IMG/VR virus record: IMGVR_UViG_3300032307_000764
Span: 128,001 to 192,000 of that record
Length of the DNA: 64,000 nucleotides
DNA from: a virus
Lineage: Duplodnaviria > Caudoviricetes
Strand: one strand, 5' to 3'
Of this stretch, positions 34,786 through 63,705 are shown piece after piece. The notes beneath the pieces are model-generated. The model searched no databases and had not been told where the DNA came from. It saw only the letters and a program-made list of their open reading frames with translations. The position numbers and the translations under genes were made by a program. How positions within the stretch are numbered: position 1 is the first letter of the stretch; the number at the start of each line of letters is the position of its first letter.

Positions 34786-35140
34786 GGCGATTTTTATTGG
34801 AAGGAACCCCCGCAGAGGTATCCGTTTTTTGTTCTTTTATTTATCCTCAAAATTTTTTTATTCTTTTAAGATGGTGTATATTTGCGGTGTAAATTAACTA
34901 CTCAGAATTTACGCTCATATATTTAGATTTTAATTGTCAAAAAAAACCAGATTCAACAGAGTCTGGTTTTTTTGTGTGCGAAAGTTGACCGAAATGTGTC
35001 CGAAAGTTGTCCGATACATGTCCGATACACATCGTGGGGGAACCTCCGAATTTCCCTAGCCCCTAGGGAAAAATCGGAAGCATTTAGTGAATCATTTTTT
35101 TGTTTTAGAAAAAACTATTACATTTGAGAAAACTGAAAAC

Positions 35141-35395
35141 ATGTACGTAGTCATTAGATCAAACCCAGACGGAGATAGCTATTACATTACATCTTCATTA
35201 GATAACGCCCGTGCTTCTTTTGAAAAAGAACGAAAGATTGTTAAGGAGAGTATTATTGATAGTGAAGAGAGTGTTGCTTTGCTGAGTGTTAAAGAAGACG
35301 AAGACTTTAGTCGAGGTGCTTGGGGTACTTGGTACGGGTGTGAGGTCATCGAAGAATTTGGTGTGACTCCTGATGAATCATATTTTCCTTTGTAG
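35141..35395 (+). CDS. Hypothetical protein (start corrected)
   Basis: ATG after promoter TACATTTG. Confidence 0.65.
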   Translation: MYVVIRSNPDGDSYYITSSLDNARASFEKERKIVKESIIDSEESVALLSVKEDEDFSRGAWGTWYGCEVIEEFGVTPDESYFPL

Positions 35396-35433
35396 AAAAT
35401 TCCATATATTTGTCTTAACTAAATAAAACCATT

Positions 35434-35796
35434 ATGGTAACGAAGGTAAAGAAAGATCAATTGGGGCTTTATGTAATTGCTGGAGGGTACATTACAAGAC
35501 CATTTTGGGGTACCTGTTTTAACGAGGGTGATGAGGTAAAGACCCATCATTTCGGCGGATCGACTCGTGCAGGTGTAACAGTCACCGACAAAAAAGAAAC
35601 CCATAACTTTAAAAGAGATGGTCAATATGAGTACTGGTGCACAACAGGACTCTGTTCAACCAAATACAAGAGGGGCGAATATACTCTGGAAGAAATTGAA
35701 AAGCAAACTGAGTGGTACAGTAAAGATATGATTCACGTTGCGGATCGTTTGACCGAAGCCAATCGCGAATTTTCAAAAACACTTACCCAGTCCTAA
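35434..35796 (+). CDS. Hypothetical protein
   Basis: Own promoter; 120 aa. Confidence 0.7.
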   Translation: MVTKVKKDQLGLYVIAGGYITRPFWGTCFNEGDEVKTHHFGGSTRAGVTVTDKKETHNFKRDGQYEYWCTTGLCSTKYKRGEYTLEEIEKQTEWYSKDMIHVADRLTEANREFSKTLTQS

Positions 35797-35863
35797 CATA
35801 AAAATCATTTTTTTCTTTGTAGAAAATTCCATATATTTGTATCAACCAATTAAATAAAAGGAG

Positions 35864-36739
35864 ATGCCAAATCACGTAACGAACTTATTGACTATTACCG
35901 CAGCTACTGAAGAGAGAGTAGATGAGATTAAATCTTTGATAAGTGGTAAATTTGACGATGGAGAAACAATGCACATTGATTTCAATAAGATTATCCCTCG
36001 TCCGGATTCATTGAATATCACTAGTGGAAGTACTACTGATAATGGTATTGCCATCTTGCAATATCGTGCAGGTGACGAAACAGCCATCCGAGGAATTATG
36101 CAATATCAATGGGGTAAGGGTTTTGATACTCCGGAGGATTTGATTAACTATATTCTCGAAAAAGGATCTGCTAATTTGGAAGAAGCTCAAAAAGCTTTGG
36201 ATAATGAAAAGCTTTATGGTCATCGGGATTGGTACGGATGGTCTAGTGATAAATGGGGTACAAAATGGAACGCATATTCCCAGGAATTGAATGAGTCCGG
36301 TGTTATCAAATTTGAAACTGCTTGGAGTACACCTGAACCAGTTATCTGTGCTCTTAGCCGAATGTTTCCCGATGCCCAATTCGATTTGAGATATGCAGAT
36401 GAAGATTTCGGTCACAACGTTGGAGAGTACACCTATGTAGATGGTGAGATCGTAGAAGAGTATCAACCAGAGGGTGGTTCCGATGAGGCTTATGAATTGG
36501 CAGCAGACATTACTGGCTATGAAGATTACTTCACCGACCGTATTTATGACATCGAAGCTGAGAGTATCGAAGAGCTTGAGGATTACGAAAAAGCTGCTAT
36601 CAGATATGTTTATCGAAAAGAGATCCTTGATGATTTCCCTAAGGTTGTTCTAAGCTATATGGAACAGTTAGCAGTCGAAGATGAGAATTACGAATTTGCT
36701 GAAAAGATTAAGAATACTGTAGCGGTAAACGAAGAGTAA
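35864..36739 (+). CDS. DUF1281/YubB (Api92-like) ferredoxin-fold protein
   Basis: MPNHVTN..DFNKIIPRP..DWYGW..KWGTKWNA..FETAWSTP. Confidence 0.85.
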   Translation: MPNHVTNLLTITAATEERVDEIKSLISGKFDDGETMHIDFNKIIPRPDSLNITSGSTTDNGIAILQYRAGDETAIRGIMQYQWGKGFDTPEDLINYILEKGSANLEEAQKALDNEKLYGHRDWYGWSSDKWGTKWNAYSQELNESGVIKFETAWSTPEPVICALSRMFPDAQFDLRYADEDFGHNVGEYTYVDGEIVEEYQPEGGSDEAYELAADITGYEDYFTDRIYDIEAESIEELEDYEKAAIRYVYRKEILDDFPKVVLSYMEQLAVEDENYEFAEKIKNTVAVNEE

Positions 36740-36921
36740 AAATTATCACCTCCATATATAGAAAAGGGTCTGGATTATTTTCAGACCTTTTTTGTGTGCG
36801 GAGGTTTTTTCTGCAGCCGCGGATTATTGACTGAGGAACCCCCTCGAGGGTGTTAAAAACTATTTGGACGGAAATTCAGGAATCATTTTTATATATAGAA
36901 AATTCTATTTATATTTGTACT

Positions 36922-37080
36922 ATGAAATCTTTTAAGAAAATTCTGTTTAATTATAGCAAGGCTCGTGAACGTGAGCGTGCTAAGGAAGCGGGTTTTTTCG
37001 ATGGAAGGTTTAAGACAAAAGTTGTCACACCCAAGACCAAGAAGCCACCTAAGCACAAACATAAATTGTTTCAAGAATAA
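36922..37080 (+). CDS. Small basic protein (start corrected)
   Basis: GFFDGRFKTKVV..KPPKHKHK. Confidence 0.65.
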   Translation: MKSFKKILFNYSKARERERAKEAGFFDGRFKTKVVTPKTKKPPKHKHKLFQE

Positions 37081-37586
37081 TGGCTAAGATTAAAGTAGAT
37101 CAGAATAGGTTGCAGAGCAATCTGAAGAGAGGAGAGATTAAGTTCTCTTATGAGAAGGTTGACGGATCGATTAGAGAAGCTAGGGGTACAACACTTTTAG
37201 ATTTGATACCCGCATCACAGCATCCTAAGGATGGAGAGAAGGCTCACAAAGGTACAGCATTCTTTGATTTGGATAATTTGGCTTGGAGATCAATTTCTGA
37301 AAAGACCGAGTGTGTTGATATAGATTCAGATTCACTAGTTGAAATTTACGGGTCACCTATCATAGAGGAGGAGGAGATTAGCTTTATGTTATTCAAGGAA
37401 GGAACACTAGGTGATGTGTGGTTGAATAAATTGATAGAGGTTATCATGGATGCTACACCTCATCGTGCAACGGAGCTTGGTCACGGAGAGTTTAAAAAGC
37501 TAGTCCGAGTTTGTAGAAGGTACATTGAGGACGAGAGCTATGTTAATAGCCTTGAGGATCGATGGAATAAATTTGTAACCAATTAA
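37080..37586 (+). CDS. SH3-beta-barrel (DUF2693/WYL_2-like) protein with C-terminal extension
   Basis: FSYEKVDGSIREARGT..FFDLDNLAWRS. Confidence 0.8.
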   Translation: MAKIKVDQNRLQSNLKRGEIKFSYEKVDGSIREARGTTLLDLIPASQHPKDGEKAHKGTAFFDLDNLAWRSISEKTECVDIDSDSLVEIYGSPIIEEEEISFMLFKEGTLGDVWLNKLIEVIMDATPHRATELGHGEFKKLVRVCRRYIEDESYVNSLEDRWNKFVTN

Positions 37587-37596
37587 ACTTAAATAT

Positions 37597-62202: not shown

Positions 62203-62379
62203 ATGAAAGTAAAAATAGGAGAAAAGATTTACGATTCAGAAAAAGAACCTATTATGGTGATATTATCAGATGCAGACAAAAAAAATATTCACAATATGTT
62301 ACCAACAGCAACAAAATATTGTAGTTTTCCTGATGAAATCCCAACAGAAGATATAAAAGAATTTATGAAGACCACATAA
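62203..62379 (+). CDS. 58-aa protein missed by the ORF track
   Basis: MKVKIGEKIYDSEKEPIMVIL; promoter upstream. Confidence 0.65.
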   Translation: MKVKIGEKIYDSEKEPIMVILSDADKKNIHNMLPTATKYCSFPDEIPTEDIKEFMKTT

Positions 62380-62388
62380 TCATAATAC

Positions 62389-62488
62389 AGTCAGGTGGTG
62401 TAATTGGTAACACGGGGTTCGAGTCCCCAATCTTCTCGAAGGGAAGATAAAGGCTGGCAAGATACAGGTTCGAGCCCTGTCCTGACTA
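62389..62488 (+). tRNA. Aberrant 100-nt tRNA-like RNA; anticodon unassignable (CGA possible)
   Basis: Acceptor AGTCAGG/CCTGACT-A, D-arm GTGT-AATTGGTA-ACAC, T-arm ACAGG-TTCGAGC-CCTGT; 50 nt with two hairpins between D and T arms. Confidence 0.65.
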
Positions 62489-62553
62489 CAAAATCATTTT
62501 TTTAATTGGAAGTAATTCCTTACATTTATACTAACCAATTAAAACAAAACAAA

Positions 62554-62709
62554 ATGAAAACACACAAATTAGTTTACCCACTAGCTTACACTTCACTCTT
62601 CACATTAGTAATAGGAGCAATCCTAATGGTAGGAGGAAATCACATAGGAGATTATATGGTTGCAGGAGGTGCAATCGTAGCAACATTACTCATGCACAAA
62701 TTAGATTGA
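62554..62709 (+). CDS. 2-TM micro-protein (start corrected)
   Basis: MKTHKLVYPLAYTSLFTLVIGAIL. Confidence 0.6.
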   Translation: MKTHKLVYPLAYTSLFTLVIGAILMVGGNHIGDYMVAGGAIVATLLMHKLD

Positions 62710-62853
62710 GTTTGATTGGTTAACACATACAACTCAAATCAGAAAGACCAGCTTCCTCCAGCTGGTCTTTTTTTGTGGACCTTTGACAAATCTTTAAGAA
62801 GACAACTGGAACTTAGCAGGAACCCCCGATATATAAGAGATAACAACAACATT

Positions 62854-63069
62854 ATGAAAGAGTATCTTTTATCAATCAAGAATGGTGAAACCATCAACAC
62901 AATCAAAGCACATACACTAGAAGAAGCAATTCTCTACTTTGCAAAGGTTAAAAACCTATCACAAGATTCATTATTAGACATCTATAGTGTTAATCCTAGA
63001 CCATTCACAATAAACCTTGCTGATTATTGTGAAGCTCATAAAATAGATCCTTACATGCAAACTAAGTGA
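62854..63069 (+). CDS. Hypothetical protein (start corrected)
   Basis: GATATATA at 62828; LEEAILYFAKVKNL. Confidence 0.65.
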   Translation: MKEYLLSIKNGETINTIKAHTLEEAILYFAKVKNLSQDSLLDIYSVNPRPFTINLADYCEAHKIDPYMQTK

Positions 63070-63266
63070 TAGTAAGTATTCCTTATTCCTAAGGTTTACA
63101 TCCCTATTTTCCAGATAATAGTATACTAGCATAAGTCTGAGGAGGTACCCCATTCTATTTTACCATAGCTTAACATAAGGTTTACCATAGCCTAGCATAA
63201 GCTCCTGAGGAACCTCCCTAAGGATACTAAAAACAAGTAACAGGATATATACAATAAAACACAACC

Positions 63267-63494
63267 ATGGAATTACTAAGATTTGAAGATTACATCAACG
63301 AAAATAACAACATATCTGAACAAGAAGATATGATGATTAAAAATTTTAAAACTGATGTTCAAAGAGTACTTATGCAAGACACAGTAGCTAGACCTAACTT
63401 TGCGGAAGGAACCTTCGGGAGTAGACCAGCATCTTTACCAGAAATGATCTCTTCTCTAGAATCTATTATTGCTGATTATAAATCTAAGATGTAA
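63267..63494 (+). CDS. Leader-bearing small protein
   Basis: MELLRFEDYINE; GATATATA at 63244. Confidence 0.7.
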   Translation: MELLRFEDYINENNNISEQEDMMIKNFKTDVQRVLMQDTVARPNFAEGTFGSRPASLPEMISSLESIIADYKSKM

Positions 63495-63705
63495 AGTTAA
63501 CCACATACCTACAAAAAGAGATCTTAGGATCTCTTTTTTTGTGACCATAAGACTTACCATAAGCTCCTGAGGAACCCCAGAAAAGATCAGCATAGCTCCA
63601 GCATTATATCTTACATTAGCTGCATGGGATACTGGATCTGGGCTGATTAGAATCATTTTTTATATTGTGGAATTTTCCATACATTAGCTAAACAAACAAT
63701 TAGCT

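What the first reader, a model, noticed from the sequence alone, without database searches (positions are those of the whole stretch)
34802..63578. GC-rich dyad GRGG-AA-CCYC held 36 nt from the terminator's TTTTGTG
Seen: about 27 intergenic copies, none noticed in 1-32 kb. The arms are palindromic around a 2-bp core, and three copies are inverted (46241, 56576, 59715). The gap from GTG to the dyad is 36 nt at 36833, 38138, 41569, 49157, 50093, 51196, 57107 and 57791, and 33-37 nt at 52271, 58925, 60249 and 60806, although spacer sequences differ. The dyad also precedes a GATATATA promoter (62817-62835), so it is independent of promoter class. Inference: a homodimer binding site plus a second site about 3.5 turns away, as in a recombination, partition, roadblock or staged-injection site.
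Basis: partly seen in the sequence, partly recalled or inferred. Interest (0 to 1): 0.8.

Follow-up and report, generated by a model that had tools for sequence, protein, structure and literature searches.

The report
Dyad box between phage gene cassettes
A 10-base near-palindrome (GRGG-NN-CCYC) sits about 36 bases after the terminator of most small early genes in an uncultured T4-like jumbo phage; it is probably a docking site for an unidentified paired DNA-binding protein, added to the known terminator-promoter modules at which such phages swap genes.

Summary
GRGGAACCYC occurs 21 times in the window (0.31 expected) and GRGGNNCCYC 25 times (1.3 expected). All copies lie after 32.7 kb, in a 30-kb island of single-gene cassettes. 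Three related IMG/VR phages and four more distant metagenome contigs carry the same box.

Of 70 terminators in four islands, 59 have the box, and 53 of those lie 31-40 nt after TTTTTTGTG. The exact 36 nt in this window comes mostly from two paralogous spacer families. In one relative, the box-to-promoter distance (17 nt) is the fixed one instead.

The arms are strongly conserved: 96% identity between orthologues, against 79% and 57% for the flanks. Single mismatches fall almost only at the dyad-related positions 2 and 9. The central two bases drift freely at orthologous sites.

This pattern fits a double-stranded site for a symmetric protein. It does not fit an RNA hairpin, a promoter or a recombinase crossover site. 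The box is not enriched in five candidate host genomes.

Contigs from other samples join cassettes at the box, the T-run and the promoter, as at PeSL elements. The reader protein is unknown. A tandem-HTH gene pair at the island head is the best candidate.

Earlier notes of this scan report similar terminator-dyad-promoter layouts, with other dyads, on other phage DNA.

The parts
32772..32781 (.). Box copy GAGGGCCCTC in the ~1.1-kb non-coding block upstream of the HTH gene pair
   Evidence: sequence. Relatives also carry box copies in this block.
32961..32970 (.). Box copy GAGGTGCCCC in the same upstream block
33190..33579 (+). 129-aa protein with one weak GcrA/Myb-like HTH; candidate reader only
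   Evidence: Pfam hits are below the curated cut-offs. Syntenic at the island head in G001 and G002.
33600..34250 (+). 216-aa protein with two three-helix HTH modules and a conserved C-terminal helix plus hairpin; candidate reader only
   Evidence: Syntenic in G001, G002, G003 and G010. 167 homologues in metagenomes.
34967..35046 (+). T-run/GTG, a 60-nt spacer holding GTCCGA repeats, then box GGGGAACCTC (35037-35046)
36788..36842 (+). T-run/GTG, 36 nt, box GAGGAACCCC (spacer family 1)
38093..38147 (+). T-run/GTG, 36 nt, box GAGGAACCCC (family 1). The G000/G002 homology block ends 2 nt after the box.
41523..41578 (+). T-run/GTG, 36 nt, box GAGGAACCCC (family 1)
43293..43344 (+). T-run/GTG, 32 nt, box GGGGCACCCC (centre CA)
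43880..43889 (.). Box GAGGTTCCTC with no terminator; promoter box about 45 nt downstream
46193..46251 (+). T-run/GTG, 39 nt, box GGGGTTCCTC, inverted together with its flanks
49111..49166 (+). T-run/GTG, 36 nt, box GAGGAACCCC (family 1). Three population joints start 1-2 nt after the box.
49584..49649 (+). T-run, a long spacer with GTCCGA repeats, degenerate box GTGGAACCCC (49640-49649)
50047..50102 (+). T-run/GTG, 36 nt, box GAGGAACCCC. Basic module, with the promoter box about 17 nt further on.
50119..50155 (+). Example of the early promoter box AATCATTTTTTT-N17-TACATTTG (Bacteroidota -33/-7 type)
   Evidence: 58 copies in the genome. E. coli-type promoters are not enriched.
51150..51205 (+). 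T-run/GTG, 36 nt, box GGGGAACCCC (family 2); basic module
52229..52280 (+). T-run/GTG, 33 nt, box GAGGAACCCC. The G000/G002 homology block ends 2 nt after the box.
56531..56585 (+). T-run/GTG, 35 nt, box GAGGTTCCCC (centre TT; flanks inverted)
57061..57116 (+). T-run/GTG, 36 nt, box GAGGAACCCC (family 2). A population joint starts at box+2.
57746..57800 (+). T-run/GTG, 36 nt, box GAGGAACCCC (family 2)
58880..58934 (+). T-run/GTG, 35 nt, box GAGGAACCCC
59669..59724 (+). T-run/GTG, 37 nt, box GGGGTTCCCC
60204..60258 (+). T-run/GTG, 34 nt, box GAGGAACCCC (family 2)
60760..60815 (+). T-run/GTG, 37 nt, degenerate box GAGGGAACCTC (one extra base)
60893..60902 (.). Box GAGGAACCCC with no terminator
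61011..61020 (.). Box GAGGAACCCC with no terminator, about 27 nt before a promoter box
62041..62104 (+). T-run/GTG, 44 nt, box GAGGAACCCC; basic distance to the promoter
62768..62835 (+). T-run/GTG, 40 nt, degenerate box CAGGAACCCC (62817-62826), then GATATATA
63142..63151 (.). Box GAGGTACCCC (true palindrome centre); no terminator
63207..63216 (.). Box GAGGAACCTC. Left end of a cassette that is absent in another sample.
63534..63578 (+). T-run/GTG, 25 nt, box GAGGAACCCC. Right end of that cassette.

Best explanation
The box is a double-stranded DNA element with consensus CT-G-R-G-G-N-N-C-C-Y-C-(A/C)-G.

Setting (shown). It forms the middle part of a three-part intergenic module. The module runs: intrinsic terminator ending TTTTTTGTG, about 36 bp, the box, 17 to ~95 bp, then a Bacteroidota-type early promoter. 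These modules separate single-gene cassettes in the variable early region of a T4-like jumbo phage. The host is probably a freshwater member of the Flavobacteriales.

Proposed function (inferred). The box is most likely the operator-like docking site of a symmetric (dimeric) sequence-specific protein made by the phage. That protein would act on the whole cassette array, regulating or insulating the early transcription units. In the basic module the box centre lies near -62 of the inferred start site. The box also lies upstream of the HTH gene pair at the head of the island.

Side effect (shown). Together with the T-run and the promoter box, it is one of the short conserved patches at which cassettes are exchanged, as at PeSL elements.

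Spacing. The 36-nt gap is mainly the inherited length of a ~55-bp terminator-proximal repeat unit. At most a moderate constraint acts on it.

Shown: existence, enrichment, conservation, the dyad pattern of tolerated change, both orientations, spread in the phage clade, no enrichment in five candidate host-clade genomes, and joints at the box. Inferred: that a protein binds it, which protein, and what binding does.
For: 1. Enrichment and restriction to the island.
2. The same box and layout occur in three related IMG/VR phages and in four more distant contigs whose HTH protein is only 59-63% identical.
3. Purifying selection. In eight orthologous G000/G002 pairs the 14-nt box region is 96% identical, against 79% for the spacer and 57% for the downstream linker.
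4. A dyad-symmetric pattern. Among 59 terminator-anchored copies, 43 of 44 single mismatches fall at positions 2 or 9.
5. The centre varies: AA 39, TT 8, CA 4, CT 3, AT 2, TA 2, TG 1. At orthologous sites the arms stay while the centre changes, e.g. GGGG-AT/CT/CA/CT-CCTC.
6. Inverted copies, flipped together with their flanks, sit at the same 35-39 nt from GTG.
7. Box copies lie in the non-coding block upstream of the HTH gene pair, here and in relatives.
8. The HTH pair is syntenic with the island head in G000-G003 (only the end of the second gene seen in the G003 stretch aligned), G010 and the distant contigs. The 216-aa protein models as two three-helix HTH modules.
9. The box is not enriched in five candidate host-clade genomes: 8-12 copies per 2.7-3.5 Mb, against 7-20 for the control pattern.
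Against: - No binding protein has been shown.
- The HTH assignments are weak: Pfam scores are below cut-off and Foldseek E-values are 0.02 or worse.
- A 10-bp dyad with half-site centres about 8 bp apart is short for a classical HTH dimer. It would suit a ribbon-helix-helix or enzyme-like reader better, and none has been identified.
- The dominant form GAGGAACCCC is asymmetric and about 75% of copies share one orientation, which may simply reflect common descent.
- The distance to the promoter is variable and shows no helical phasing outside the basic 17-nt class (own arithmetic).
- About half of the 58 promoter boxes in the genome have no box nearby, so it is not needed for promoter activity.
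- No RNA data exist for this phage.
Confidence: 0.45

Rival explanations
1. No dedicated reader exists. The box is just the best-conserved patch of a PeSL-like repeated module. It is kept uniform by frequent recombination or gene conversion between the ~25 copies, and it matters only as a homology patch for cassette shuffling.
For: - Contigs from other samples join cassettes 1-2 nt after the box (49167/49168 three times, 57118, 51207). One loses the cassette 63267-63494 between two box copies that share 19 nt.
- G000/G002 homology blocks end at 38149 and 52282, 2 nt after the box.
- A spacer-plus-box unit is 94% identical between unrelated flanks (pair 50093 vs 26599).
- All spacers chain into one family.
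- The right half of the island consists of genes not shared with the relatives, like the variable regions described for PeSLs (PMC4122927).
Against: - Gene conversion would homogenise the flanks as well, yet they are only 57-79% identical.
- The mismatch pattern is dyad-symmetric and the centre is free. A pure homology patch predicts neither.
- The arms persist in phages whose proteins are 40-60% identical.
- Joints occur equally at the promoter, the T-run and the 5' leader boxes, so the box is not special for recombination.
Confidence: 0.2
2. The box is a recognition or cleavage site of an enzyme, such as the phage type II topoisomerase, a nicking or homing endonuclease, or a modification enzyme. 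Placed between strongly transcribed units, it would relieve torsional stress or start recombination.
For: - A short symmetric site with R/Y degeneracy at mirrored positions and a free centre is typical of sites read by symmetric enzymes (general knowledge).
- Joints cluster next to the box.
- Alternating purine-pyrimidine tracts lie beside some copies.
- Earlier notes list T4-type topoisomerase genes and homing-endonuclease-like genes in this genome (not checked by me).
Against: - There is no evidence of breaks. Only assembled contigs were available, and these cannot show ends.
- No enzyme has been linked to the site.
- Joints are explained equally well by homology.
Confidence: 0.1
3. The box is the core site of a site-specific recombinase. 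Arms flank a 2-bp crossover, as in hix/gix or att sites, which would make the island an integron-like cassette array.
For: - Inverted arms surround a 2-bp core, mostly AA, in one orientation.
- One cassette is bounded by two copies and is absent in another sample.
Against: - No Resolvase, Phage_integrase or Y1 transposase hit in any of the four records. The records are 47-85% complete.
- The central dinucleotide varies, even between orthologous sites, which would block strand exchange between copies.
- Joints also lie at the T-run, the promoter and the leader, with 12-19 nt of shared sequence.
Confidence: 0.05
4. The box acts in RNA, as a hairpin, a processing site or a target of a trans-acting RNA in read-through transcripts. 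Alternatively, it is a promoter element for another sigma factor (GGAAC resembles an ECF -35 element).
For: - GGAAC resembles ECF -35 elements.
- The G003 form CUGGGGAACCCCAG could form a 5-bp stem with a 4-nt loop.
Against: - The main form has an A.C mismatch in that stem.
- The centre (the loop) varies and the box works in both orientations.
- Spacers are not more structured than shuffles (mean z -0.4).
- A hairpin in one spacer is not kept in its orthologue.
- No conserved position lies 14-22 nt downstream that could serve as a -10.
- There is no Rfam match in the island other than a tRNA-like gene.
- The only sigma gene found is a host-like primary sigma.
Confidence: 0.07
5. The box is an operator of a host regulator, or a Chi-like host recombination signal borrowed by the phage.
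For: Phages do borrow host regulator sites. An earlier scan note (e1-166367) reports such a case in T1-like phages; I did not check it.
Against: - Five genomes of the clade whose RpoD is closest to the phage sigma (64% identity) hold 8-12 copies each, against 7-20 of the control pattern.
- The site occurs in both orientations and only between genes.
Confidence: 0.06

Closest known systems
PeSL elements (promoter-early stem-loop) of T4-type phages: Arbiol et al. 2010 (PMC2839356); Comeau et al. 2014 (PMC4122927)
   Same: - A T4-type phage.
- Composite terminator stem-loop plus host-type early promoter, repeated between small genes of the variable early region.
- Gene insertions, deletions and swaps between close relatives have their breakpoints in these modules.
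   Different: - In PeSLs the stem-loop lies just upstream of the promoter and no third element is described (PMC4122927).
- Here a conserved 10-14-bp GC-rich dyad box is inserted about 36 bp after the terminator and at least 17 bp before the promoter. Further small boxes are present as well (AACCTATAGGTT, GTCCGA repeats, an alternating Pu-Py tract).
- The promoter is of the Bacteroidota -33/-7 type, not TTGACA/TATAAT.
Multi-copy palindromic operators of global plasmid or phage regulators (e.g. the 12 KorB operators of plasmid RK2; from general knowledge)
   Same: One short palindrome occurs in many copies at varying distances upstream of many promoters within one replicon. Copies also lie near the regulator's own gene.
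   Different: No ParB-type protein was found.
RNA polymerase I terminators of eukaryotes: a T-rich release element plus a downstream site for a Myb-like protein (Reb1/TTF-I; from general knowledge)
   Same: A T-rich termination element is followed at a set distance by a protein site. Myb/GcrA-like HTH proteins are encoded at the head of the island.
   Different: - The distance here (box centre about 44 bp after the T-run) is too long for a simple roadblock acting at the T-run.
- The box is orientation-independent, whereas Reb1/TTF-I sites are polar.
- This is an analogy only.
Lineage-specific dyads on early cassettes of other phages, noted earlier in this scan (e1-5375557, e1-4093782)
   Same: A terminator, dyad, promoter layout in early cassette arrays. 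One case is in a freshwater T4-like phage and has a different dyad sequence.
   Different: The dyad differs (GCGT-N3-ACGC there) and the genome differs. Those notes were not checked by me.

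Membership tests
PeSL-type composite terminator-promoter cassette | Occurs in a T4-type phage genome | tested here: met
   T4-type DNA polymerase and RNA ligase/tail-fibre attachment families. The polymerase matches T4-like cyanophage and coliphage records. Earlier notes report T4-type head genes (not re-tested).
PeSL-type composite terminator-promoter cassette | A stem-loop (terminator) paired with a host-type early promoter, repeated between small genes | tested here: met
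   Hairpin plus T-run calls. 58 promoter boxes with TAnnTT(T/A)G.
PeSL-type composite terminator-promoter cassette | Stem-loop lies immediately upstream of the promoter, with no intervening conserved element | tested here: not met
   Most modules carry ~36 nt plus the box plus at least 17 nt between terminator and promoter. Only a few terminators (40179, 40636, 47473) abut the promoter.
PeSL-type composite terminator-promoter cassette | Concentrated in variable regions and associated with gene insertions, deletions and swaps between relatives | tested here: met
   Synteny breaks between G000 and G002. The right half of the island is unshared. Population joints lie at module boxes.
PeSL-type composite terminator-promoter cassette | Mini-circle formation between tandem elements (shown by PCR in RB49/phi1) | not testable with these tools
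   Needs DNA from infected cells.
Serine- or tyrosine-recombinase core site | A recombinase gene is present in the element or genome | tested here: not met
   PF00239 and PF00589: no hit in four records; the controls rang. The records are incomplete (47-85%).
Serine- or tyrosine-recombinase core site | Identical central crossover bases in all partner sites | tested here: not met
   Centre AA 39, TT 8, CA 4, CT 3, AT 2, TA 2, TG 1. The centre varies at orthologous sites.
parS/ParB or KorB-type site | A ParB N-terminal domain protein is encoded | tested here: not met
   PF02195: no hit in four records.
REP/BIME-type elements with a RAYT transposase | A Y1 (HUH) transposase is present | tested here: not met
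   PF01797: no hit in four records.
Host operator or Chi-like site | Over-represented in the host genome | tested here: not met
   8-12 copies against 7-20 for the control in five Crocinitomicaceae/Flavobacteriia genomes. The true host is unknown.
Structured RNA element | A stable fold with compensatory changes | tested here: not met
   Spacer folding z -0.4. The main form has an A.C mismatch. No Rfam family matched.
Operator of a dimeric DNA-binding protein | Dyad-symmetric conservation, tolerated change at mirrored positions, and orientation independence | tested here: met
   and the inverted copies.
Operator of a dimeric DNA-binding protein | A protein that binds it specifically | not testable with these tools
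   Only candidates are available: the HTH pair 33190/33600 and the zinc-ribbon paralogues 40249/43391/60408.

The most novel reading that the evidence does not exclude
The box is the operator of an island-wide phage regulator, for example the tandem-HTH protein encoded at the head of the island, which also carries box copies upstream of its own gene. Bound just behind each terminator, it would work as a protein-assisted insulator or termination backstop that keeps ~25 early cassettes transcriptionally independent, or that shuts them off together. This would be a bacterial-virus counterpart of the T-rich element plus Myb-like protein terminators of eukaryotic RNA polymerase I. Together with the different dyads noted in other freshwater T4-like phages, it would define lineage-specific 'cassette punctuation' readers.
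Probability: 0.12. Interest if true: 0.75.

Novelty: new variant of a known kind. Interest (0 to 1): 0.5.

Why it matters
Terminator-promoter modules (PeSLs) are the known joints at which T4-like phages swap accessory genes. They have been described as two-part elements read only by the host's transcription machinery. Here a third, strongly conserved and dyad-symmetric part points to an extra, probably phage-encoded, DNA reader that marks almost every cassette boundary in a Bacteroidota-infecting branch of the T4 superfamily. It would also provide a compact terminator-operator-promoter module for Bacteroidota genetics. If there is no reader, the box still gives a sharp marker for tracing cassette exchange in natural phage populations.

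Tried and rejected
- RNA evidence: no RNA holder was listed for a 9.9-kb stretch of the island, so transcript ends could not be examined.
- Rfam at gathering level found only a tmRNA in the window. A permissive scan of the left block gave only a sub-threshold PreQ1 hit.
- A literature search for the motif letters returned only unrelated eukaryotic papers.
- The search for related loci with the 216-aa HTH protein found nothing in viral contigs.
They added only G010 and fragments of known relatives.
- More distant records G010-G012 have only one box copy each. G010's island is cut off by the contig end, so this says little.
- PDB sequence searches with both HTH proteins gave nothing useful. Foldseek on the model gave only weak tandem-HTH look-alikes.
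- Pfam found no DNA-binding family in ten conserved small island proteins.
- ECF-type promoter idea: no conserved -10 downstream.
- Spacer RNA hairpin idea: not supported.
- Helical phasing of box-to-promoter distances: none beyond the basic class (numbers).
- Single-subunit RNA polymerase: the PF00940 search rang nowhere, including the controls, so it is uninformative.

Full report
**Setting.** The window is bases 128,001-192,000 of a 248,191-bp IMG/VR virus record, about 85% complete.
- It encodes T4-type DNA polymerase and RNA ligase families.
- It encodes a tmRNA.
- Outside the window it encodes a 286-aa primary-type sigma factor with regions 1.2, 2, 3 and 4.
- The closest cellular relatives of that sigma (64% identity) are RpoD proteins of freshwater Crocinitomicaceae/Flavobacteriia genomes.

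The repeated promoter in the region is AATCATTTTTTT-N17-TAnnTT(T/A)G, followed by an A-rich leader without a Shine-Dalgarno sequence. There are 58 copies in the genome. By general knowledge this is the Bacteroidota -33/-7 type. E. coli-type promoters are not enriched. The host is therefore probably a freshwater member of the Flavobacteriales. This is inferred.

**The observation.**
- GRGGAACCYC occurs 21 times in the window against 0.31 expected.
- With any centre, GRGGNNCCYC occurs 25 times against 1.32 expected.
- In the whole record, 24 of 25 GRGGAACCYC copies lie between 160 and 200 kb.
- Of the 25, 23 (35037-63578) lie between open reading frames of a ~30-kb island of short plus-strand genes; two lie in the non-coding block left of the island.
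- Most of these genes have their own promoter and terminator.

**Anatomy of the module.** It reads as follows:
- a hairpin (often with a UUCG loop) and T-run ending TTTTTTGTG;
- a weakly conserved GTGgGCTAAGGTTTT box;
- about 20 nt with no conservation;
- CT-GRGGNNCCYC-(C/A)G;
- a linker;
- the promoter.

The linker is 16-18 nt in a 'basic' class. It is longer (27-95 nt) where other small elements are inserted. These include an AACCTATAGGTT palindrome, a GGAGGGG...GCGTATACGTGCGT tract and GTCCGA repeats. In the basic class the box centre falls near -62 of the inferred transcription start. This is my own count; the start has not been mapped.

**Relatives.** Three IMG/VR records (G001, G002, G003) hold the same box in the same layout: 21, 13 and 12 copies, clustered and strand-biased. 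Four metagenome contigs were reached through more distant homologues (59-63% identical) of the island-head protein. They have the same gene order and the same box. The box is therefore old and clade-wide, not a recent amplification in one genome.

**Spacing.** I anchored on terminators, not on the box. Of 70 hairpin + T-run + G(T/C)G sites in the four islands, 59 have a 7/8 or 8/8 match to GGGGNNCCCC within 15-69 nt.
- 53 of these lie at 31-40 nt and 38 at 35-38 nt, about 1e-32 against a uniform null.
- Such a match is found in 0.045% of random 65-nt windows of the genome.

The clustering is real, but the exact '36' is less remarkable than it looks.
- Seven of the eight 36-nt cases in this window belong to two families of near-identical spacers.
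- All spacers chain into one sequence family.
- The scatter of 31-40 nt is about what a few small neutral indels would give. This is an estimate from general knowledge.
- In G003 the terminator-to-box gap varies (29-39 nt), while the box-to-promoter gap is fixed at 17 nt.

The one observation that does suggest a real constraint comes from the inverted copies. These are flipped together with 8-15 nt of their own flanks, yet they still sit 35-39 nt from GTG.

**What kind of element.** Three results point to a double-stranded site read by a symmetric protein.
- First, selection. In eight orthologous G000/G002 pairs the 14-nt box region is 96% identical. The spacer is 79% identical with few gaps, and the downstream linker 57% with many gaps.
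- Second, the pattern of tolerated change. Positions 1, 3, 4, 7 and 8 never carry the one mismatch allowed. Of 44 single mismatches, 43 lie at the mirrored positions 2 and 9. The centre is AA in 39 copies, TT in 8, and CA, CT, AT, TA or TG in the rest.
- Third, orthologous sites in distant relatives keep even their arm asymmetry while the centre changes. Examples are GGGG-AT/CT/CA/CT-CCTC and GAGG-AA/CT-CCCC.

A free 2-bp centre, use in both orientations and an A.C mismatch in the commonest form rule out an RNA or DNA hairpin. The spacers fold no better than shuffles (z -0.4). No position downstream is conserved as a -10 would be.

**Recombination.** No serine or tyrosine recombinase, ParB or Y1 transposase was found in the four (incomplete) records. 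A variable central dinucleotide is also incompatible with a crossover core. Cassette exchange at the modules is nevertheless evident.
- G000/G002 homology blocks break at promoter boxes, at T-runs and twice 2 nt after the box.
- The right half of the island is not shared with the relatives.
- Contigs from four other samples join 1-2 nt after the box: at 49167/49168 (to three different promoters), 57118 and 51207.
- One joint falls inside the box (63214 to 63602). It removes the cassette 63267-63494 between two copies that share 19 nt.
- Other joints fall at the T-run/GTG (50056), between promoter boxes (52575 to 53736) and in the leader (46448).

These are homology-type junctions at all conserved boxes, as described for PeSLs (PMC4122927). 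The box is one of several patches, not a privileged site.

**Who reads it.** The box is not enriched in five genomes of the candidate host clade, so a phage protein is more likely. Candidates are:
- The two genes at the head of the island (33190 and 33600). They are syntenic in the relatives examined that carry the island, and box copies lie in the ~1.1-kb non-coding block upstream of them.
- The 216-aa protein (33600) models as two three-helix HTH modules joined by a basic linker, plus a conserved C-terminal helix-hairpin. Its weak fold neighbours are tandem-HTH DNA binders: a CRISPR-repeat binding protein, a double homeodomain, sigma regions 3-4 and a Tc3 transposase.
- A family of small zinc-ribbon/basic proteins in the island (40249, 43391, 60408).

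A 10-bp dyad is short for an HTH dimer, so none of these assignments is secure.

**Verdict.** The 'homodimer site' reading is the best-supported one. The 'second site at a fixed 3.5 turns' is only weakly supported. The element is a new three-part variant of PeSL-type cassette boundaries in a Bacteroidota-infecting T4-like lineage, and its reader is unidentified.

Earlier notes of this scan (e1-5375557, e1-4093782) report similar terminator-dyad-promoter layouts with other dyads on other phage DNA. I did not check them.

Noticed in passing
window 62389-62488 (+): A tRNA-like gene scores 43.4 bits against Rfam tRNA (cut-off 29). It has about 45 nt where the model has 17 in the anticodon region. 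ARAGORN and the gathering-level scan both missed it. One sample shows very high contig depth over this bin, as expected for a widely shared tRNA sequence.
   Followed up: partly
window 8909-9400 (+): A phage-encoded tmRNA gene (73 bits; tag peptide EEAEMLLAA).
   Followed up: no
window 32090-33150: A ~1.1-kb non-coding block lies between the minus-strand structural genes and the island. It holds several repeat types (CGCCCCGAT; TATAGTA/CACACA units; CTGGGATT units) plus box copies. It could be a control region or an origin.
   Followed up: no
window 52300-52311 and 57820-57831; also in G001 and G003: A perfect 12-bp palindrome, AACCTATAGGTT, is inserted between the box and the promoter in several modules of three genomes. 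It is a second candidate protein site.
   Followed up: no
window 49187-49220, 56630-56665, 59737-59760: A GC-rich element, CC(A/T)GGAGGGG...GCGTATACGTGCGT(G/A)CG, contains an alternating purine-pyrimidine tract. It is repeated downstream of some box copies and is also present in G001 and G002.
   Followed up: partly
window 34975-35035 and 49595-49640: Repeats of TGTCCGA(W) fill the unusually long spacers (50-60 nt) of two modules. G002 has the same arrangement.
   Followed up: no
promoter boxes throughout 35-64 kb, e.g. 50117-50123: Many promoter boxes begin GGAATCA or AGAATCA, so they contain GANTC (GAATC). The first island gene has weak GcrA-like similarity, and GcrA reads methylated GANTC in Caulobacter. 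This is a lead for the promoter box, not for the dyad.
   Followed up: no
window 40249-40596, 43391-43744, 60408-60722, 43009-43224: A family of small paralogous proteins. Each has an N-terminal CxxC...YCSxxC zinc ribbon, a basic AYRxRKK helix and a shared C-terminal (F/Y)RVxR...F(F/Y)T motif. The family is conserved in all four phages and has no Pfam family above cut-off.
   Followed up: partly
window 55424-55456: A 31-nt tandem duplication inside a gene end is absent from contigs of all four other samples laid on the stretch.
   Followed up: no
genome 216,606-217,466 (outside the window; L045:1342-2202): A phage copy of a Bacteroidota-type primary sigma factor (286 aa), 64% identical to RpoD of freshwater Crocinitomicaceae.
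   Followed up: partly
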